From assembly GCF_009914755.1 (NCBI RefSeq), contig NC_060936.1: 64,000 bases of DNA; one strand, written 5' to 3'. A program made the translations under genes and the position numbers. The stretch is from the human T2T-CHM13v2.0 reference genome, Homo sapiens. Positions 4,042 to 58,380 of this stretch are shown piece after piece (the stretch's first letter is position 1; every line of letters begins with the position of its first letter). The notes beneath the pieces are model-generated. The model searched no databases. It saw nothing but the letters and a program-made list of their open reading frames with translations, and was not told where the DNA came from.

Positions 4042-15874
<11,833 letters not shown>

Positions 15875-43757: not shown

Positions 43758-44234
43758 TCATTATTGGAGCCATTTTATTTTATAATTTTATTTATTCAGC
43801 TGGTTCAGAATTCAAAAGGGCATGTAATGAAGTCGCTATCCTGCTTCTGTTTCCCAGCTATCCAGCTTCCCTCCCTGGAGGCAAACAGTGTCATTGGTTT
43901 TCAATATATCCTTCCAGATGTATGTTATCCGTATCTAAGCAGTTATATTTATTCTTACTTCGCATAAATGGCAGCATGCTATAAGCACTGTTTTGTATTT
44001 TGCCTTTAACAATTTTTATTATACATCTTGGAGAACTTTCCAAATCAGTACATAATGTGCTTCCTTTTATTCCTTCATAGTATTCTATTGTCTGGATGTA
44101 TTATAATTATTTAACAAATTCCCTATTGGTGAATATTTGTCATTATTGCTAGAATGACCGTATTTCCTTGTTTGCCTGGGACATTCTAAGCTCATGCCAC
44201 TTGTCCCAGCTTATTTATTTATTTATTTATTTGA

Positions 44235-45250
44235 TGTGGGCGGCAAGCCACCCAGGCACCGAGGCAAGAGACAGAGGACACGAGCTGTTCCAGTATAATA
44301 AAATATAAAACAAGAATAGTTATACCAGATATAGATCTTAGATATGATTATATATGAATATCATTAATCATTAGTTTGTAGCAATTACTTTTTATTCCAA
44401 TATTATGATAATCCTCGCTCTATAATCATAGCCTAGGAAAAACCACGCCATACAGAGATAGGAGCTGAGGGGACATAGTGAGGTGTGACCAGAAGACAAG
44501 AGTGCGAGCCTTCTGTTATGCCCGGACAGGGCCACCAGAGGGCTCCTTGGTCTAGCGGTGACGCCAGCGTCTGGGAAGACGCCCGTTATCAGGGGGATCG
44601 TGGTCCAGCGGTAGCGAAGGTGTCAAGGAACAACACCCGCTACTTAGCAGACCGGGAAGCGGGGGGGGGGGAGGTCTCCCTTTCCCCAGGGGAGTTTAGA
44701 GAAGACTCTGCTCCTCCACCTCTTGTGGAGGGCCTGACATCAGTCAGGCTTGCCCGCAGTTATCGGGAGGCCTAACCGTCTCCCTGTGATGCTGTGCTTC
44801 ACTAGTCGCACTCCTAGTCTGCCTTCATGTTCCATCCTGTACACCTGGCTCTGCCTTCCAGATAGCAGTAGTAAATTAGTGAAAATACTAATAGTCCCTG
44901 ATATGCAGAAATAATGATGTAAGCTGTCTCTCTCTCTGCTTCCTCTCCCTCTCTGCCTCAGCTGCCAGGCAGGGAAGGGCCCCCTGTCCAGTGGACACGT
45001 GACCCACGTGACCTTACCTATCATTGGAGGTGACTCACATTCTTTACCCTGCCCCTTCTGCCTTGTATCCAATAAATAACAGCGCAGCCAGACATTCGGG
45101 GCCACTACCGGTGTCCGCGCATTGGTGGTAGTGGTCCCCCGGGCCCAGCTGCCTTTTCTCTTGTCTCTTTGTCTTGTGTCTTTATTTCTACACTCTCTCA
45201 TCGCTGCACACAGGGAGAGACCTACCGACCCTGTGGGGCTGGTCCCTACA
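44235..45250 (+). mobile_element. LTR13 (HERV-K13/HML-4-type LTR), plus orientation
   Basis: 1016 bp with TG...CA termini (TGTGGGCGGCAAGCCACCCAGG...GGTCCCTACA) and AATAAA at 45071-45076. It matches the LTR13 consensus as I recall it. Confidence 0.85.
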
Positions 45251-48222
45251 TCGGGGCTGAGAGTTGACGAATGCCCCATTGTTTAGAGGGGCCTGGGGCC
45301 GGCCCCTCATCCTGTTTCCCTGATTTTTAAAAGGCCGTAAAGGATGGCCATCAATATCAAATCTGAAATGGCATTGAGATGCCCAGTGAAGACCCTTTTG
45401 GCATCGTGGGCATACAGTAGAAGGTGGGGCATCTTGTTGCTGAAAAGTTTTTTGTTGTTGTTGTTGGTGATGTAAAGGATGGCGACCTGCACGCCGAGGG
45501 CAATTTCTTTTTGCATGTCCATTCTGGCCGCATATGAAGCATTGGCCAGAGAATTGTCCAGGCATTCGAATAGAGGCCATAGCTTGTGCCATAATCATTG
45601 CTGTATGGAGAGTTCCTCCCACCCCTTCACAGGCTTTAATGTAGGAGGTGAGTATATCACCACCTGGTGGAATTTTACCTTTGACGGGGCGAATAGCCGC
45701 CTGACAATCTGGATTTGCTTGTTCATAAGCCATAAGTTCTACAACAAGTCTTTGGCCGTGGCTATCAGGAATAGCCTTTTCTGCTGCGTCTTGAAGATGA
45801 GCAATAAAGTCTGGGTAGGGCTCATGTTGTCCCTGTCTGACGGCTGTGAAAGATGGGCATACTTTACCATCATCTTGAATTTTGTCCCAAGCATCTAAGC
45901 AACATTTTCGCAGTTGTTCAATAACCTCATCATTTAGTATAGTTTGGTGTCGGATTGCAGCCCATTGACCCATTCCCAGTAACTGGTCAGCCGTAACGTT
46001 AACAAGAGGATTAGAGCCCTGATTAAGACGAATGCGTTCCTGGACAGCATCAACCCACCAAGTCCTGAATTGTAAATATTGGGATTTAGATAAGACTGAT
46101 TTTGCCAAAATTTCCCAATCATAGGGTACCAAACGTTTATCTTCTGCTAAGGCTTTTAATGTGGAACGGACAAAAGGAGAGTTGGTGCCATATTGTTTCA
46201 CTGATTCCTTAAAATCTTTGAGGAATTTAAAAGAAAAACTTTCCTATGTAGCAGGGCGTAGCTGAACCTGGCCTGGATGGATGGTGTCAGGCTGAATTAC
46301 CGCCTGAACAGCGGGAATGCCAGGTATTGGCTGTGCCCCAGGAGCAGGCAATTGCAGAGCCTGATTATTTACCCAAGCAGCCGATTCTCAGGCTGAGGGG
46401 CTTAATTGTCAGCCTCTTGATCTTGTTGAGCTGTGGGGTCAGCCGCCTGCTGGGCAGGATCAACAACAGGCTGTGGGTGGTTTTGTACTGCTGGGGTGGC
46501 AGGTACTGGGGGTTGTAAAATTACAGGAAATTGCCAAGCTTCGGGATCCCCATATTCCCTTGCCTGAACTATAGCCCTCGTAAGCAGAGTGTCATCTTCA
46601 GGGATGTATGTAATTTGTTGCTTATGAGCGGCAATGGTAGTATTGGCAACAGCAGTTGCGACCAGACCAGGAGCAGAAAAAGAGGTAGAATTTTGAATAG
46701 AAGGAGAGTCGAAAAACTGAAAGCCAGGGTGAGAGCAGATTACCTGCTGAGCAGGTCTTTCATGGGCCTGAAAACCAGGCTGCCACGGCAAGTGTGAACC
46801 AGGCTTCAAGGGAGCCTGTGACTCTAACTGAGTCCAATTTGTAGGAAAGGATCCAGGCTTCAAGGGAGCCTGTGACTCTACCCGAGTCTGATTTGTAGAA
46901 AAGGGACCAGGCTTCAAGGGAGCCTGTGACTCTAACTGAGTCTGATTTGTAGGAAAGGATCCAGGCTTTAAGGGAGCCTGTGACTCTAACTGAGTCCGAT
47001 TAGGAGGAAAAGAACCAGGCTTCAAGGGAGCCTGTGACTCTACCCAAGTCTGATTTATAGGAAAGGAACCAGGCTTCAAGGGAGCCTGTGACTCTAACTG
47101 AGTCCGATTTGTGGGAAGGGAACCAGGCTTCAAGGGAGCCTGTGACTCTACCCGAGTCTGATTTATAGGAAAGGAACCAGGCTTCAAGGGAGCCTGTGAC
47201 TCTACCCGAGTCTGATTTATAGGAAAGGAACCAGGCTTCAAGGGAGCCTGTGACTGTAACTGAGTCCGATTTGCAGGAAAGGAACCAGGCTTCAAGGGAG
47301 CCTGTGACTCTGAGTCCGATTTGCAGAGAATGGACCAGGCTTCAAGGGAGCCTGTGACTCTACCCGAGTCTGACTTATAGGAAAGGAACCAGGCTTCAAG
47401 GGAGCCTGTGACTCTACCCGAGTCTGATTTATAGGAAAGGGACCAGGCTTCAAGGGAGCCTGTGACTCTGAGTCCGATTAGAAGAAATAGGATTGAGGGC
47501 CTCATTACCGGGCCGAGAATTGGAAGCCTCTTTTCCAAGCTGTTCATATAGCGGAGCCTCTGTACCGGGCTGCATAGAAACGTAATTTATAGACTCGTTT
47601 ACAGGCTGCCTGGTCTCATCTGCTATTTGCACGGCGGCAGTGTTGAAAGAGTGAGGAGAGACAGGAGGGTCTGGCCGCAATGGCTGTTGATATGTTTCAG
47701 CTGAGTTTTGCTGATTGGGGAGATAAGTACATTTAGGTCAGTTAAAAGATCATCATAAAGCGGCAATGGGGGTGCAGTGGCCTCTGGCGTAGGTGGCGGT
47801 GGCGCAGGCATGTCAGAGTGGAAGTCCTCCTTTGAAATTACGTTCTCAATTTGTGCAGTATCATCAGGGGAAAGAGAGCTGAGAGCTTCCTCGACCTCCT
47901 CAGAGGAGAGGAAAGAGGGATCAGTCTCCATATTGTCCTCCTGAGTCTATAAGGAGTCTAAGACAGAGCGAACCGAAGCCCAGATTGACCAAATGGTGGG
48001 TGGGATAAAATGTCCCCCTTTATGAGCAATTTTGAATTGTTTGCCAATCTCATCCCAATCTTTAAGTTCTGGAGTTCCCTGAGTCGGAAACCAAGGGCAA
48101 AGAAGATCTACAACCTCAAATAGTTCAATTAACTTTTCAGTAGAAACTTTAACACCTCCTTCTTTAAGAAGAGTTTTTATAAAATTTAAATAAGCCGAAT
48201 ACTTTGTACTGGCCTGTCCCAT
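45251..48222 (-). pseudogene. Disrupted betaretrovirus-like (HERV-K) gag
   Basis: Myristoylated matrix start MGQASTKYSAYLNFIKTLLKEGGVKVS...CPWFP (48222-47947), then stops and frameshifts. Capsid with major homology region VRQGQHEPYPDFIAHL, and two CCHC knuckles CFICGQNGHAKRNC and CPRCQKGLHWASQC (ORF 46201-45188). It ends abruptly at the inverted LTR; no pol or env. Confidence 0.92.
46795..47487 (-). repeat. 54-bp minisatellite (~13 copies) inside gag
   Basis: The motif CAGGCTT(C/T)AAGGGAGCCTGTGACT starts at 46800, 46854, 46908, 46962, 47016, 47070, 47124, 47178, 47232, 47286, 47336, 47390 and 47444. On the minus strand it encodes ESQAPLKPGSFPxNxTxx repeats. Confidence 0.95.
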
Positions 48223-48351
48223 GGTGTCCCCGGAAAACTCTGAGTGCTCAAGCTTACCACCAAGTTTATTGACTGCAATCCTCAGGAATCTCTCGTTGAA
48301 CTCCTCCGCTGATCCCGCACTCAGGGCGCAACTTCACACAGCGAGGGAGAG

Positions 48352-48369
48352 CCCCACGTCGGAGCGCCA
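48352..48369 (-). promoter_or_regulatory. tRNA-Lys primer binding site
   Basis: TGGCGCTCCGACGTGGGG begins 2 nt (TC) after the 5' LTR's CA and resembles the tRNA-Lys1,2 PBS TGGCGCCCAACGTGGGGC. Confidence 0.8.
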
Positions 48370-48371
48370 GA

Positions 48372-49393
48372 TGTAGGGACCAGCCCCACAGGGTCGGTAG
48401 GTCTCTCCCTGTGTGCGGCGATGAGAGAGTGTAGAAATAAAGACACAAGACAAAGAGACAAGAGAAAAGGCAGCTGGGCCCGGGGGACCACTACCACCAA
48501 TGCGCAGACACCGGTAGTGGCCCCGAATGTCTGGCTGCGCTGTTATTTATTGGATACAAGGCAGAAGGGGCAGGGTAAAGAATGTGAGTCACCTCCAATG
48601 ATAGGTAAGGTCACGTGGGTCACGTGTCCACTGGACAGGGGGCCCTTCCCTGCCTGGCAGCTGAGGCAGAGAGGGAGAGGAGACAGAGAGAGAGACAGCT
48701 TACATCATTATTTCTGCATATCAGGGACTATTAGTATTTTCACTAATTTACTACTGCTATCTGGAAGGCAGAGCCAGGTGTACAGGATGGAACATGAAGG
48801 CAGACTAGGAGTGCGACTACTGAAGCACAGCATCACAGGGAGACGGTTAGGCCTCCCGATAACTTCGGGCAAGCCTGACTGATGTCAGGCCCTCCACAAG
48901 AGGTGGAGGAGCAGAGTCTTCTCTAAACTCCCCTGGGGAAAGGGAGACCCCCCCCCCCGGCCCCGCCCTTTCCCGGTCTGCTAAGTAGCGGGTGTTGTTC
49001 CTTGACACCTTCGCTACCGCTGGACCACGATCCTCCTGATAACGGGCGTCTTCCCAGACGCTGGCGTCACCGCTAGACCAAGGAGCCCTCTGGTGGCCCT
49101 GTCCGGGCATAACAGAAGGCTCGCACTCTTGTCTTCTGGTCACACCTCACTATGTCCCCTCAGCTCCTATCTCTGTATGGCGTGGTTTTTCCTAGGCTAT
49201 GATTATAGAGCGAGGATTATCATAATATTGGAATAAAAAGTAATTGCTACAAACTAATGATTAATGATATTCATATACAATCATATCTAAGATCTATATC
49301 TGGTATAACTATTCTTGTTTTATATTCTATTATACTGGAACAGCTCGTGTCCTCTGTCTCTTGCCTCGGTGCCTGGGTGGCTTGCTGTCCACA
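48372..49393 (-). mobile_element. LTR13, minus orientation (5' LTR of the gag segment)
   Basis: Near-identical reverse complement of 44235-45250. It is followed on the minus strand by TC, the PBS, a leader with splice donor (GTG|GTAAGC at 48258/48257) and gag. Confidence 0.88.
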
Positions 49394-49734
<341 letters not shown>

Positions 49735-49957
49735 TAATATATGTTTTATGGTTACCTTAGTTATTACAGACAGTGCTGCAGTAAATAAGCTTGTATATCT
49801 TGTCATTTTGCAAGTTTGCAAATATAACTGTAGGATAAATTTCTAAAAGTATAATTGATGTGTCAAAGAGTATATATATTTGTAATTTTTAAAGATGTTG
49901 ACAAATTGCCGTCCATACTGGTCATGCCATTTTTCAGTTTTACCAGCAATGTAGTAG

Positions 49958-58380
<8,423 letters not shown>

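What the first reader, a model, noticed from the sequence alone, without database searches (positions are those of the whole stretch)
44229..49399. HERV-K (LTR13) element with inverted LTRs but a single clean 6-bp target-site duplication
Seen in the sequence: LTR 44235-45250 (+) and LTR 48372-49393 (-) are near-identical inverted copies, so both outer ends are U3 ends (TGTGG... and ...CCACA). Between them are only PBS, leader and gag. ATTTGA is duplicated at 44229-44234 and 49394-49399, and the flanks rejoin into one Alu. The left LTR's U5 end is followed by the same TC dinucleotide (CCTACA-TC) that follows the 5' LTR before the PBS, as expected for an unprocessed end. Established knowledge: proviruses normally have direct-repeat LTRs with one U3 end and one U5 end, and HERV-K integrase makes ~6-bp TSDs. 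Inference: this is a U3-U3-ended DNA produced by aberrant template switching (growing plus strand jumping from the end of gag onto a plus-strand strong-stop DNA) or by an autointegration-type inversion, then integrated by integrase as a DNA-transposon-like unit with 1 kb terminal inverted repeats.
Basis: partly seen in the sequence, partly recalled or inferred. Interest (0 to 1): 0.85.

Follow-up and report, generated by a model that had tools for sequence, protein, structure and literature searches.

The report
Retrovirus relic with two inward-facing LTRs
This is a dead HERV-K (HML-4) insertion whose two end repeats point towards each other, apparently a faulty DNA copy of the virus that was still pasted in by the viral integrase, and two more insertions of the same odd kind lie elsewhere in the same genome.

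Summary
LTR 44235-45250 (+) and LTR 48372-49393 (-) are inverted copies: 1006 of 1018 aligned bases are identical, with two 3-bp indels. Both outer ends are U3 ends (TGTGG...). ATTTGA flanks both sides, and the flanks rejoin into one Alu at its tail/body border.

Between the LTRs, on the minus strand, lie only the PBS, the leader and gag (Pfam Gag_p10, Gag_p24 N and C, zf-CCHC_5). Gag stops at 45253.

Normal HML-4 proviruses on chr16 and chr19 continue ...CAGCCCC|TGGCG... at that point. So the TC at 45251-45252 is not gag. It is the unprocessed U5 terminus.

New here: the same genome holds two more U3-U3 insertions of this LTR family.
- chr1q: LTR-PBS-gag-inverted LTR, with the junction 69 nt further into gag, TC again retained, and a 5/6 TSD.
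- chr17: LTR + 10 nt of PBS + inverted U3 nt 1-~269, with a 5/6 TSD.

In each full inverted pair (chr12, chr1q) the two LTRs are sisters on a tree.

Best reading (about 0.7): a polarity-switching error of plus-strand DNA synthesis made linear DNA with two U3 ends, and integrase inserted it in one event. Autointegration, nested insertion and post-integration inversion fit poorly. I found no printed description. Orthologous empty sites and read-level support could not be checked.

The parts
44210..44228 (-). T-rich (TTTA)n tail of the target Alu (left flank)
   Evidence: sequence; D2/I5 show the right flank is the body of an Alu in minus orientation
44229..44234 (.). left copy of the 6-bp target-site duplication ATTTGA
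44235..45250 (+). inverted LTR (U3-R-U5 on the + strand); outer end is the U3 terminus TGTGG, inner end is ...CCCTACA
   Evidence: 95.5% and 94.7% identical to the LTRs of the chr16 and chr19 proviruses; sister of the right LTR
45251..45252 (+). TC: the two bases that integrase normally removes from the U5 end; retained, and not templated by gag
   Evidence: normal copies read ...CAGCCCC|TGGCG
45253..48222 (-). gag, with several stops and frameshifts, from the ATG at 48222 to the breakpoint at 45253; the breakpoint is about 165 nt before the normal gag stop and 68 nt after the start of the GGGAAAC gag-pro slippery heptamer
   Evidence: ORFs; Pfam Gag_p10 2.5e-25, Gag_p24 1.3e-38, Gag_p24_C 6.3e-21, zf-CCHC_5 4e-13
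46796..47469 (-). 54-bp (18-codon) tandem array inside gag, 12.6 copies
   Evidence: TRF; family D1
48223..48351 (-). 5' leader between PBS and gag
   Evidence: 98% identical to chr19, 97% to chr16
48352..48369 (-). primer-binding site TGGCGCTCCGACGTGGGG
48370..48371 (-). TC between U5 and PBS of the 5' LTR
48372..49393 (-). 5' LTR of the gag-bearing arm (U3-R-U5 on the - strand); outer end is the U3 terminus
49394..49399 (.). right copy of the target-site duplication ATTTGA
49398..49680 (-). body of the target Alu (right flank)
   Evidence: D2 (49395-49556 is 83% identical to the Alu at 50008-50169)

Best explanation
This is a single integrase-mediated insertion of an aberrant, replication-dead HML-4 DNA that had a U3 terminus at both ends.

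The DNA most likely arose inside the reverse-transcription complex when two plus-strand DNAs became joined 3'-end to 3'-end by copying each other. Each of them had been primed at the polypurine tract, so each began exactly at the first base of U3.
- One strand had made the second jump and grown through PBS, leader and gag up to window base 45253.
- The other had run off the end of the minus-strand template at the last base of U5 (...TACATC), with no PBS copy.

Mutual copying gives a blunt duplex: U3-R-U5-PBS-leader-gag | U5'-R'-U3'. Its two ends are both U3 att sites. The U3 and U5 termini of this virus are nearly the same (GA-TGTGGG versus GA-TGTAGGG). Integrase could therefore process and insert it with the usual 6-bp stagger, at the tail/body border of an Alu.

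Shown: the anatomy, the TSD, the unprocessed inner end, the sister LTRs, and the recurrence at two other loci.

Inferred: which strands switched, where and when this happened, and that reverse transcriptase rather than a ligase made the inner join.

Consequence (inferred): inverted LTRs cannot recombine to a solo LTR, so such elements keep their internal sequence.
For: (1) Both outer boundaries are exact U3 termini next to ATTTGA. Four of 4 normal HML-4 proviruses have 6-bp TSDs (6/6, 6/6, 5/6 and 6/6 bases identical).

(2) The inner junction is ...CCCTACA-TC|GGGGCTGAG. Normal gag reads ...CAGCCCC|TGGCG, so TC is the unprocessed U5 end with 0 nt of microhomology.

(3) The left and right LTRs are sisters (100/99) and 1.2-1.5% apart. 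This is in the range of normal pairs: chr16 2.3%, chr19 2.7%.

(4) chr1q locus G000:C1:237326503-237331227 has the order LTR(+), TC, PBS, gag, inverted LTR. Its junction is ...CTTCAGC|GA|TGTAGGG, 69 nt further 3' in gag (normal gag reads CAGC|AATTTG). Its LTR pair are sisters, 2.8-3.0% apart. Its flanks are AAATTC and AAATTT.

(5) chr17 locus G000:C17:45012254-45013807 has a full LTR, TC, 10 nt of PBS (TGGCACCCAA), then the reverse complement of U3 nt 1-~269 ending ...GCCCACA. Its flanks are CATAAT and TATAAT. The inverted U3 is about 92% identical to its own U3. A partial tRNA copy at the join marks a plus-strand strong-stop DNA caught in synthesis.

(6) I classified all 25 exact matches to GGGCTGGNCCCTACATC in the genome: 7 are followed by PBS plus leader, 2 by antisense gag, 1 by a partial PBS plus inverted U3, and 15 by flank that gave no BLAST match to HML-4 internal sequence.

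(7) Other HML-4 copies carry antisense patches (chr8, chr1p), so polarity switches recur in this family.

(8) Passages of PMC7240061 state that only the final ~20 nt of U5 or U3 are needed for integrase-mediated insertion.
Against: There is no direct evidence that reverse transcriptase made the inner join. Two of the three junctions are blunt, with no microhomology and no added bases, which would equally suit blunt-end ligation.

No internal polypurine tract lies near the breakpoint that would explain a plus-strand 3' end there. The nearest purine run of 11 or more is about 440 nt downstream.

The predicted RNA structure around the breakpoint is only weakly better than shuffled sequence (z = -1.27 for the chr16 copy, -2.76 for the chr19 copy).

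The chr12 LTR pair is less diverged than any normal pair measured. This could mean gene conversion between the arms rather than simple shared origin.

Two of the three TSDs are 5/6, and all three are A/T-rich.

The orthologous empty site and raw reads were not available. The scan of LTR ends is incomplete: 91 of 191 matches and 84 of 184 matches were not listed and so were not examined.
Confidence: 0.7

Rival explanations
1. Pre-integration end-joining. An incompletely double-stranded viral DNA broke into two duplex pieces, 5'LTR-PBS-gag and a free LTR. A host ligase (as in 2-LTR circle formation) joined the blunt unprocessed U5 end to the broken gag end in the flipped orientation. Integrase then used the two U3 ends.
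For: Both gag junctions (chr12, chr1q) are blunt, carry the complete unprocessed ...TACATC end, and have no microhomology or added bases. That 2-LTR circle junctions look like this is recalled, not from a call.
Against: The chr17 junction has 10 nt of PBS and a 2-nt ambiguous overlap (AC), and it joins to an internal U3 position. That looks like a nascent strand switching template rather than the ligation of finished ends. This route also needs a free-standing LTR duplex cut exactly at the U3/PPT border, and an intasome assembled on a ligated product. The two gag breakpoints are only 69 nt apart in an 8.2-kb internal region (about 2% by chance), which suits a polymerase pause site better than random breakage.
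Confidence: 0.15
2. An inverted dimer that later collapsed. A truncated 5'LTR-PBS-gag DNA was joined to the U5 end of a full-length viral DNA and integrated as a piece longer than 12 kb with two U3 ends. Homologous recombination between the two direct LTRs of the full-length unit later left one LTR.
For: The geometry after collapse is identical to what is seen at chr12 and chr1q. That solo-LTR formation is very common is recalled background; here at least 459 LTR13-like U3 starts were found against about 14 loci with leader sequence.
Against: It needs an extra, larger intermediate and a later event at two loci independently. It cannot give the chr17 structure, with its partial inverted U3 abutting a partial PBS. 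It still needs the same unexplained U5-to-gag join.
Confidence: 0.05
3. Post-integration rearrangement or nested insertion. A normal provirus was later inverted or deleted, or a second LTR13 element landed in gag and a deletion trimmed the rest.
For: Rearranged HML-4 copies exist (chr8 antisense patches, chr1p truncated 3' LTR fused to antisense pol).
Against: A rearrangement would have to place a U3 terminus exactly against the host TSD on the side where a U5 terminus should be. This would have to happen at three loci. A nested LTR would end in ...CA followed by a 6-bp duplication of gag; instead TC follows and no gag duplication is present. The flanks rejoin perfectly with one ATTTGA. The two LTRs are sisters.
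Confidence: 0.04
4. Autointegration. The processed U5 end of the viral DNA attacked its own gag region, inverting a segment.
For: An inversion-type autointegration circle contains the order 5'LTR-PBS-gag-inverted LTR. This follows from established knowledge of the reaction.
Against: Integrase joins the processed ...CA-3' end, but at chr12 and chr1q the two extra bases TC are retained and gag does not supply them (normal antisense gag reads CA|GGGGCT and TT|GCTGAAG). The product is a circle, which cannot integrate. It also would not be cut exactly at both U3 termini, and no 6-bp duplication of gag is present.
Confidence: 0.03
5. Assembly artefact: the LTRs are really direct, or the inverted arm is a mis-join.
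For: None found. Read-level data were not available.
Against: The arms differ at 12 positions and by two 3-bp indels, so they are not a collapsed copy. The junctions are clean to the base. The same architecture appears at two other chromosomes in the same assembly. A 5.2-kb unit is shorter than the long reads used for such assemblies (recalled).
Confidence: 0.02

Closest known systems
Canonical HERV-K(HML-4) / HERVK13-LTR13 proviruses (for example the copies at G000:C16:2680468-2690742 and G000:C19:22018612-22028905)
   Same: The LTRs are 94-95% identical and the leader and gag 95-98% identical. The PBS position is the same, the TSD is 6 bp, and the 54-bp gag repeat is present.
   Different: The canonical copies have direct LTRs with one U3 and one U5 outer end, and carry pro, pol, env and a PPT. 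The window element has two U3 outer ends, an inverted LTR fused by its unprocessed U5 end to gag, and nothing 3' of gag.
2-LTR circle junctions and other unintegrated dead-end retroviral DNAs
   Same: An unprocessed LTR terminus (...CA plus two bases) is joined to other viral DNA without integrase.
   Different: Those forms are circles and are not integrated (recalled knowledge). Here the product kept two free att ends and was integrated with a TSD.
Defective HIV-1 proviruses with inversions or asymmetric LTRs (Joseph et al. 2022, PMC9278108; passages read)
   Same: Both are integrated defective proviruses put down to aberrant strand transfers. [quoted passage not shown]
   Different: The passages I read describe internal inversions and 3'-LTR deletions. 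They do not describe a provirus bounded by two U3 ends or a whole inverted LTR.
Concerted integration in vitro with donor DNAs that carry the same kind of end on both sides
   Same: Integrase needs only about 20 nt of a U3 or U5 end (PMC7240061 passages). The use of two like ends in vitro is recalled knowledge.
   Different: That is a test-tube design. Here natural germ-line insertions show it happened in vivo, three times in one family.
DIRS retrotransposons and DNA transposons with terminal inverted repeats
   Same: Inverted terminal repeats about 1 kb long; in the case of DNA transposons, also a TSD.
   Different: DIRS elements use a tyrosine recombinase and their inverted LTRs are their normal design (PMC3950715 abstract). 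DNA transposons encode a transposase. This element is a betaretroviral gag fragment with ordinary LTRs, and the inversion is an accident.

Membership tests
HERV-K(HML-4) provirus (HERVK13-int / LTR13) | LTRs and internal sequence homologous to other HML-4 copies | tested here: met
94-98% identity to the chr16 and chr19 proviruses. No repeat library was run.
HERV-K(HML-4) provirus (HERVK13-int / LTR13) | Betaretrovirus-type gag (MA p10, CA p24, zinc knuckles) | tested here: met
   Gag_p10, Gag_p24, Gag_p24_C and zf-CCHC_5, all above Pfam cut-offs.
HERV-K(HML-4) provirus (HERVK13-int / LTR13) | 6-bp target-site duplication | tested here: met
   ATTTGA/ATTTGA. 4 of 4 normal copies have 6-bp TSDs.
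HERV-K(HML-4) provirus (HERVK13-int / LTR13) | Two LTRs in direct orientation, with outer ends U3 (left) and U5 (right) | tested here: not met
   the LTRs are inverted and both outer ends are U3.
HERV-K(HML-4) provirus (HERVK13-int / LTR13) | pro, pol, env and a polypurine tract before the 3' LTR | tested here: not met
   homology to chr16/chr19 stops at their positions 4951/4810. Nothing from 4952-10511 is present.
Autointegration (intramolecular integration) product | A processed ...CA end joined to internal viral DNA, with a short duplication of the internal target | tested here: not met
   TC is retained after CA at chr12 and chr1q and gag does not supply it. No gag duplication is present.
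Nested LTR13 insertion in a provirus | The inner LTR is flanked on both sides by proviral sequence with its own 6-bp TSD | tested here: not met
   the left LTR's U3 end abuts host DNA carrying the same TSD as the right LTR. Its U5 end is unprocessed.
DIRS-type retrotransposon | Tyrosine recombinase; inverted LTRs as the native design; no TSD | tested here: not met
   Only gag domains were found, a TSD is present, and relatives have direct LTRs.
U3-U3 ended retroviral insertion (class proposed here) | Both outer termini are U3 starts; 6-bp TSD; inner join involves an unprocessed U5 end or a partial PBS | tested here: met
   chr12, chr1q and chr17.

The most novel reading that the evidence does not exclude
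U3-U3 'face-to-face' insertions may be a general and so far uncatalogued class of retroviral integration product. On this reading they arise whenever two polypurine-tract-primed plus strands copy each other 3'-to-3'. They are integrated because integrase hardly tells U3 from U5 ends. They become over-represented among surviving internal ERV sequence because inverted LTRs cannot collapse to solo LTRs. If so, they should be found in other ERV families and among the inverted defective proviruses of present-day retroviruses. The clustering of two gag breakpoints 61-137 nt downstream of the gag-pro slippery site would then mark a reverse-transcription pause or transfer hot spot.
Probability: 0.4. 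Interest if true: 0.75.

Novelty: new variant of a known kind. Interest (0 to 1): 0.68.

Why it matters
This is fossil evidence, at base-pair resolution, for two things that are usually studied only in vitro or in cell culture.
- Reverse transcription can switch between strands of the same polarity and build inverted-LTR DNA.
- Integrase will insert DNA carrying two U3 ends in vivo with a normal target duplication.

Three independent germ-line cases in one small family suggest the error was not very rare. The family has about 14 loci with leader sequence and at least 459 U3 starts.

There are also practical consequences.
- Annotation and dating pipelines that expect direct LTRs will misread these loci.
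- Inverted LTRs block solo-LTR formation, so these elements preserve gag sequence.
- The arrangement places two LTR promoters convergently around gag and creates a 1-kb inverted repeat. If transcribed, that could give long double-stranded RNA. This last point is inference and was not tested.

Tried and rejected
1. Is TC gag-derived? No. All 7 copies that run on past the chr12 breakpoint read differently there.

2. Internal polypurine tract near the breakpoint (a central-flap-like stop). No purine run of 11 or more lies within about 440 nt, and no 20-nt window reaches 18 purines in either reference provirus. The idea is not supported.

3. Frameshift-site structure as a pause site. The breakpoint sits at the 3' foot of a predicted GGGGC...GCCCC stem, 68 nt after the start of GGGAAAC. 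But the fold z-scores are weak (-1.27 and -2.76). I keep this only as a lead.

4. PBS-like motif. Normal gag reads TGGCGTCC right after the chr12 breakpoint, which resembles the PBS start TGGCGCTCC. The chr1q breakpoint has nothing similar, so I treat it as possibly chance.

5. Mirror-image U5-U5 elements. The one close pair of U3 starts on opposite strands among the 100 listed exact U3-start matches is chr8:144203141(-)/144203877(+). It has host DNA with Alu pieces between the two LTRs, so these are two separate LTRs. 359 of the 459 matches were not listed.

6. A fuller survey of structure at the more divergent loci (chr17:44.18-44.20 Mb, chr9, chr10, chrY, chr11) was not possible. Those loci were seen only around the gag end, where they read through normally.

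8. Literature. Nine full-text searches found no description of an endogenous retrovirus with inverted LTRs and a TSD, and none of this locus. Hits for 'inverted LTRs' concerned DIRS elements, lentiviral vector design, yeast chromosome rearrangement, and pairs of separate LTRs that form Z-RNA. Subscription journals and older J Virol papers are not in that library, so earlier reports on unintegrated avian or murine retroviral DNA may exist. Supplementary tables of HERV catalogues (for example PMC4724089) were not opened.

Full report
**What is in the window**

Reading 43900-49800 and the repeat search show two inverted arms, 44235-45255 and 48367-49393. A global alignment of the two LTRs gives 1006 identical positions, 12 mismatches and two 3-bp indels. 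A multiple alignment counts 15 differences in 1016.

Each LTR begins TGTGG and ends CCCTACA followed by TC. The left LTR is on the + strand (44235-45250) and the right one on the - strand (48372-49393). Both outer ends are therefore U3 ends, and the two U5 ends face each other.

ATTTGA lies directly outside each LTR (44229-44234 and 49394-49399). The right flank aligns with a neighbouring Alu from the border of its T-tail and body (families D2 and I5). The left flank is a (TTTA)n tail ending in GA. Removing the element and one ATTTGA restores one Alu.

**The inside**

On the minus strand the right LTR is followed by TC, then a PBS (48352-48369), a leader, and gag from the ATG at 48222.
- Pfam finds Gag_p10, Gag_p24 N- and C-terminal domains and a gag zinc knuckle.
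- Gag is broken by several stops and frameshifts.
- It holds a 54-bp array of 12.6 copies.
- Homology to other copies stops at 45253.
- No pro, pol, env or polypurine tract is present.

**The inner junction**

A search of the window's own genome with 45150-45650 found eight other copies of the gag end.
- The two full proviruses on chr16 and chr19 have direct LTRs and are 10.3 kb long.
- They read ...CTCAACTCTCAGCCCC|TGGCGTCCAGCC... where the window reads ...CTCTCAGCCCC|GA|TGTAGGGACC....
- So GGGGCT... on the + strand is antisense gag. The TC is not gag. It is the pair of bases that sits between U5 and the PBS and that integrase removes from the end of linear viral DNA. The left LTR's U5 end was never processed.
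- In normal copies the breakpoint lies 68 nt after the start of the GGGAAAC heptamer in the gag/pro overlap and about 165 nt before the gag stop.

**It is not unique**

*The chr1q copy* found has the same build.
- It spans G000:C1:237326503-237331227, in the order LTR(+), TC, PBS, gag, inverted LTR.
- Its junction is ...CCCACTTCAGC|GA|TGTAGGG, 69 nt further into gag. Normal copies read CAGC|AATTTG there, so TC is again retained and again not gag-derived.
- Its flanks are AAATTC and AAATTT (5 of 6 identical).
- Its LTRs differ at 28 of 1006 positions.

*Scan for LTR U5 ends.* I scanned the genome for LTR U5 ends that keep TC. I classified all 25 exact matches to GGGCTGGNCCCTACATC:
- 7 are followed by PBS and leader; two of these are the 5' LTRs of the chr12 and chr1q elements.
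- 2 are followed by antisense gag (chr12, chr1q).
- 15 are followed by flank that gave no BLAST match to HML-4 internal sequence.
- 1, on chr17, is followed by 10 nt of PBS and then the reverse complement of U3.

*The chr17 element* spans G000:C17:45012254-45013807.
- It consists of a full LTR (with a later Alu inside U3), TC, TGGCACCCAA, then inverted U3 nt 1-~269 ending ...GCCCACA.
- Its flanks are CATAAT and TATAAT (5 of 6).
- The inverted piece is about 92% identical to the element's own U3.

So three loci have two U3 outer ends and a 6-bp duplication. Four of 4 normal proviruses checked also have 6-bp duplications.

*Limits of the survey.* 91 of 191 matches and 84 of 184 were not listed and were not examined.

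**One event or several**

On a maximum-likelihood tree of 13 LTRs, the two LTRs of the chr12 element are sisters (100/99). So are those of chr1q (100/99), just like the pairs of the normal chr16, chr19 and chr4 proviruses. Pair divergences are 1.2-1.5% (chr12), 2.8-3.0% (chr1q), 2.3% (chr16), 2.7% (chr19), 4.8% (chr4) and 8.1% (chr8).

The chr12 pair is the least diverged. With substitution rates recalled from the literature this would be only a few million years. However, a chimpanzee-human comparison lists human-specific ERV insertions only for HERVK10 and files its one HERVK13 human-present gap as a deletion in chimpanzee (PMC1779541 tables). Gene conversion between the arms is therefore a live alternative, and I give no date.

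**How it most likely arose**

The outer ends require integrase acting on two U3 termini. The inner ends require a join that integrase did not make.

All three structures can be written as two plus-strand DNAs, each starting at the first base of U3 (where the polypurine-tract primer is removed), joined 3'-to-3'.
- *chr12 and chr1q:* a plus strand that had grown into gag, joined to a plus strand that had run off the minus-strand template at the U5 end.
- *chr17:* a plus-strand strong-stop DNA caught 10-11 nt into copying the tRNA, joined to a nascent plus strand 269 nt long, with a 2-nt ambiguous overlap.

If each strand copies the other, the result is a blunt duplex with two U3 ends and needs no further priming.

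The termini of this virus are nearly alike. The U3 terminus reads TGTGGG and the reverse complement of the U5 terminus reads GA-TGTAGGG. That the unprocessed U3 end also begins GA rests on the polypurine tract ending ...GAGA just before TGTGGG and on an assumed RNase H cut two bases upstream. A U3-U3 intasome is therefore plausible. A paper on integrase-mediated transgenesis states that only the last ~20 nt of U5 or U3 are needed (PMC7240061 passages).

It is inference.

Blunt ligation of two partial duplexes before integration would give the same chr12 and chr1q sequences. I rate it second because of the chr17 junction and because the two gag breakpoints lie within 69 nt of each other in an 8.2-kb internal region.

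Other routes fit worse.
- *Autointegration:* TC is retained, the product would be a circle, and there is no gag duplication.
- *Nested insertion plus deletion, or a later inversion:* these would need base-exact coincidences at three loci.
- *An inverted dimer later collapsed by LTR recombination:* this fits chr12 and chr1q but not chr17.

**Why the gag end**

The chr12 breakpoint sits at the 3' foot of a predicted GGGGC...GCCCC stem in a G+C-rich stretch just after the slippery heptamer. The folds are only weakly better than shuffles. No polypurine-like tract is nearby. I record the clustering as real but unexplained.

**Survivorship**

The genome holds at least 459 LTR13-like U3 starts but only about 14 loci with HML-4-like leader sequence. 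Vargiu et al. list 7 canonical and 5 non-canonical HML4 chains (PMC4724089 table passage).

Direct LTRs recombine to solo LTRs, whereas inverted ones cannot (established recombination logic). So two gag-bearing U3-U3 elements among about 14 internal-bearing loci need not mean a high error rate at integration. Three in a few hundred insertions, roughly 1%, is the better lower-bound guess.

**Comparison with what is known**

The element is HML-4 by sequence. It fails the defining architecture of a provirus, which is direct LTRs and one U3 and one U5 end. It resembles 2-LTR circle junctions in having an unprocessed end, and DNA transposons in having terminal inverted repeats plus a TSD. It is a member of neither.

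Papers on defective HIV-1 proviruses report inversions and asymmetric LTRs. In the passages I read they do not report proviruses bounded by two U3 ends (PMC9278108). PMC12657518 has no occurrence of 'inver'.

Nine searches found no description of such ERVs. The library lacks most subscription journals, so I do not claim priority.

**Verdict**

It is also extended, since this is a recurrent class in the family. It is a new structural variant of a known kind of element. It is interesting to retrovirologists and to people who annotate ERVs. It is not a new kind of system.

Noticed in passing
window 46796-47469 (-); also the chr16, chr19, chr8 and chr1q copies: The 54-bp (18-codon) tandem array in gag between MA and CA varies in copy number between loci. 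TRF gives 12.6 copies here. BLAST spans of about 260-270 bp (about 5 copies) are seen in the chr16 and chr19 proviruses and about 1.2 kb in the chr8 provirus.
   Followed up: partly
L065+L066 (G000:C8:146232001-146246000), about 146239843-146240209: An otherwise collinear HML-4 provirus carries two antisense patches inserted in pol. These correspond to chr16-copy positions 8831->8636 and then 5224->5077, inserted at about position 6890. They are further polarity-switch rearrangements in this family.
   Followed up: partly
L057+L058 (G000:C1:3309001-3323000, minus strand): In this HML-4 provirus the 3' LTR stops about 500 nt into the LTR and is fused, with a 2-nt CT overlap, to 281 nt of antisense pol. 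Non-HML-4 sequence follows.
   Followed up: partly
L077 (G000:C6:27063097-27063233, minus strand): An LTR end and PBS-like sequence with about 25 nt of leader run straight into the R/U5 part of an LTR in direct orientation. This is an extreme internal deletion form.
   Followed up: no
chr1p, chr4 and chrY loci (L023, L040, L062): Three loci share the same internal deletions relative to the chr16 copy: the leader at about 2474 jumps to the gag repeats, and about 3775 jumps to about 6479 and then about 7070. This suggests a deleted variant that spread.
   Followed up: no
normal gag just 3' of the chr12 breakpoint (L002, L003; corresponds to the position after window 45253): Normal gag reads TGGCGTCC immediately after the breakpoint, which resembles the start of the PBS (TGGCGCTCC). 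Read antisense it looks like a tRNA 3' end (…ACGCCA). This may be chance; the chr1q breakpoint has nothing similar.
   Followed up: partly
G000:C8:144202159-144204835 (L086): Two LTR13 copies lie head-to-head, with their U3 starts 715 bp apart and host DNA with Alu pieces between them. They are two separate LTRs, not a U5-U5 element.
   Followed up: yes
window 44235-45250 and 48372-49393: The two LTR promoters point inward, giving convergent transcription across gag, and the arms form a 1-kb inverted repeat 3.1 kb apart in the GLS2-HSPD1P4 intergenic region. If transcribed this could yield long double-stranded RNA. Not tested.
   Followed up: no
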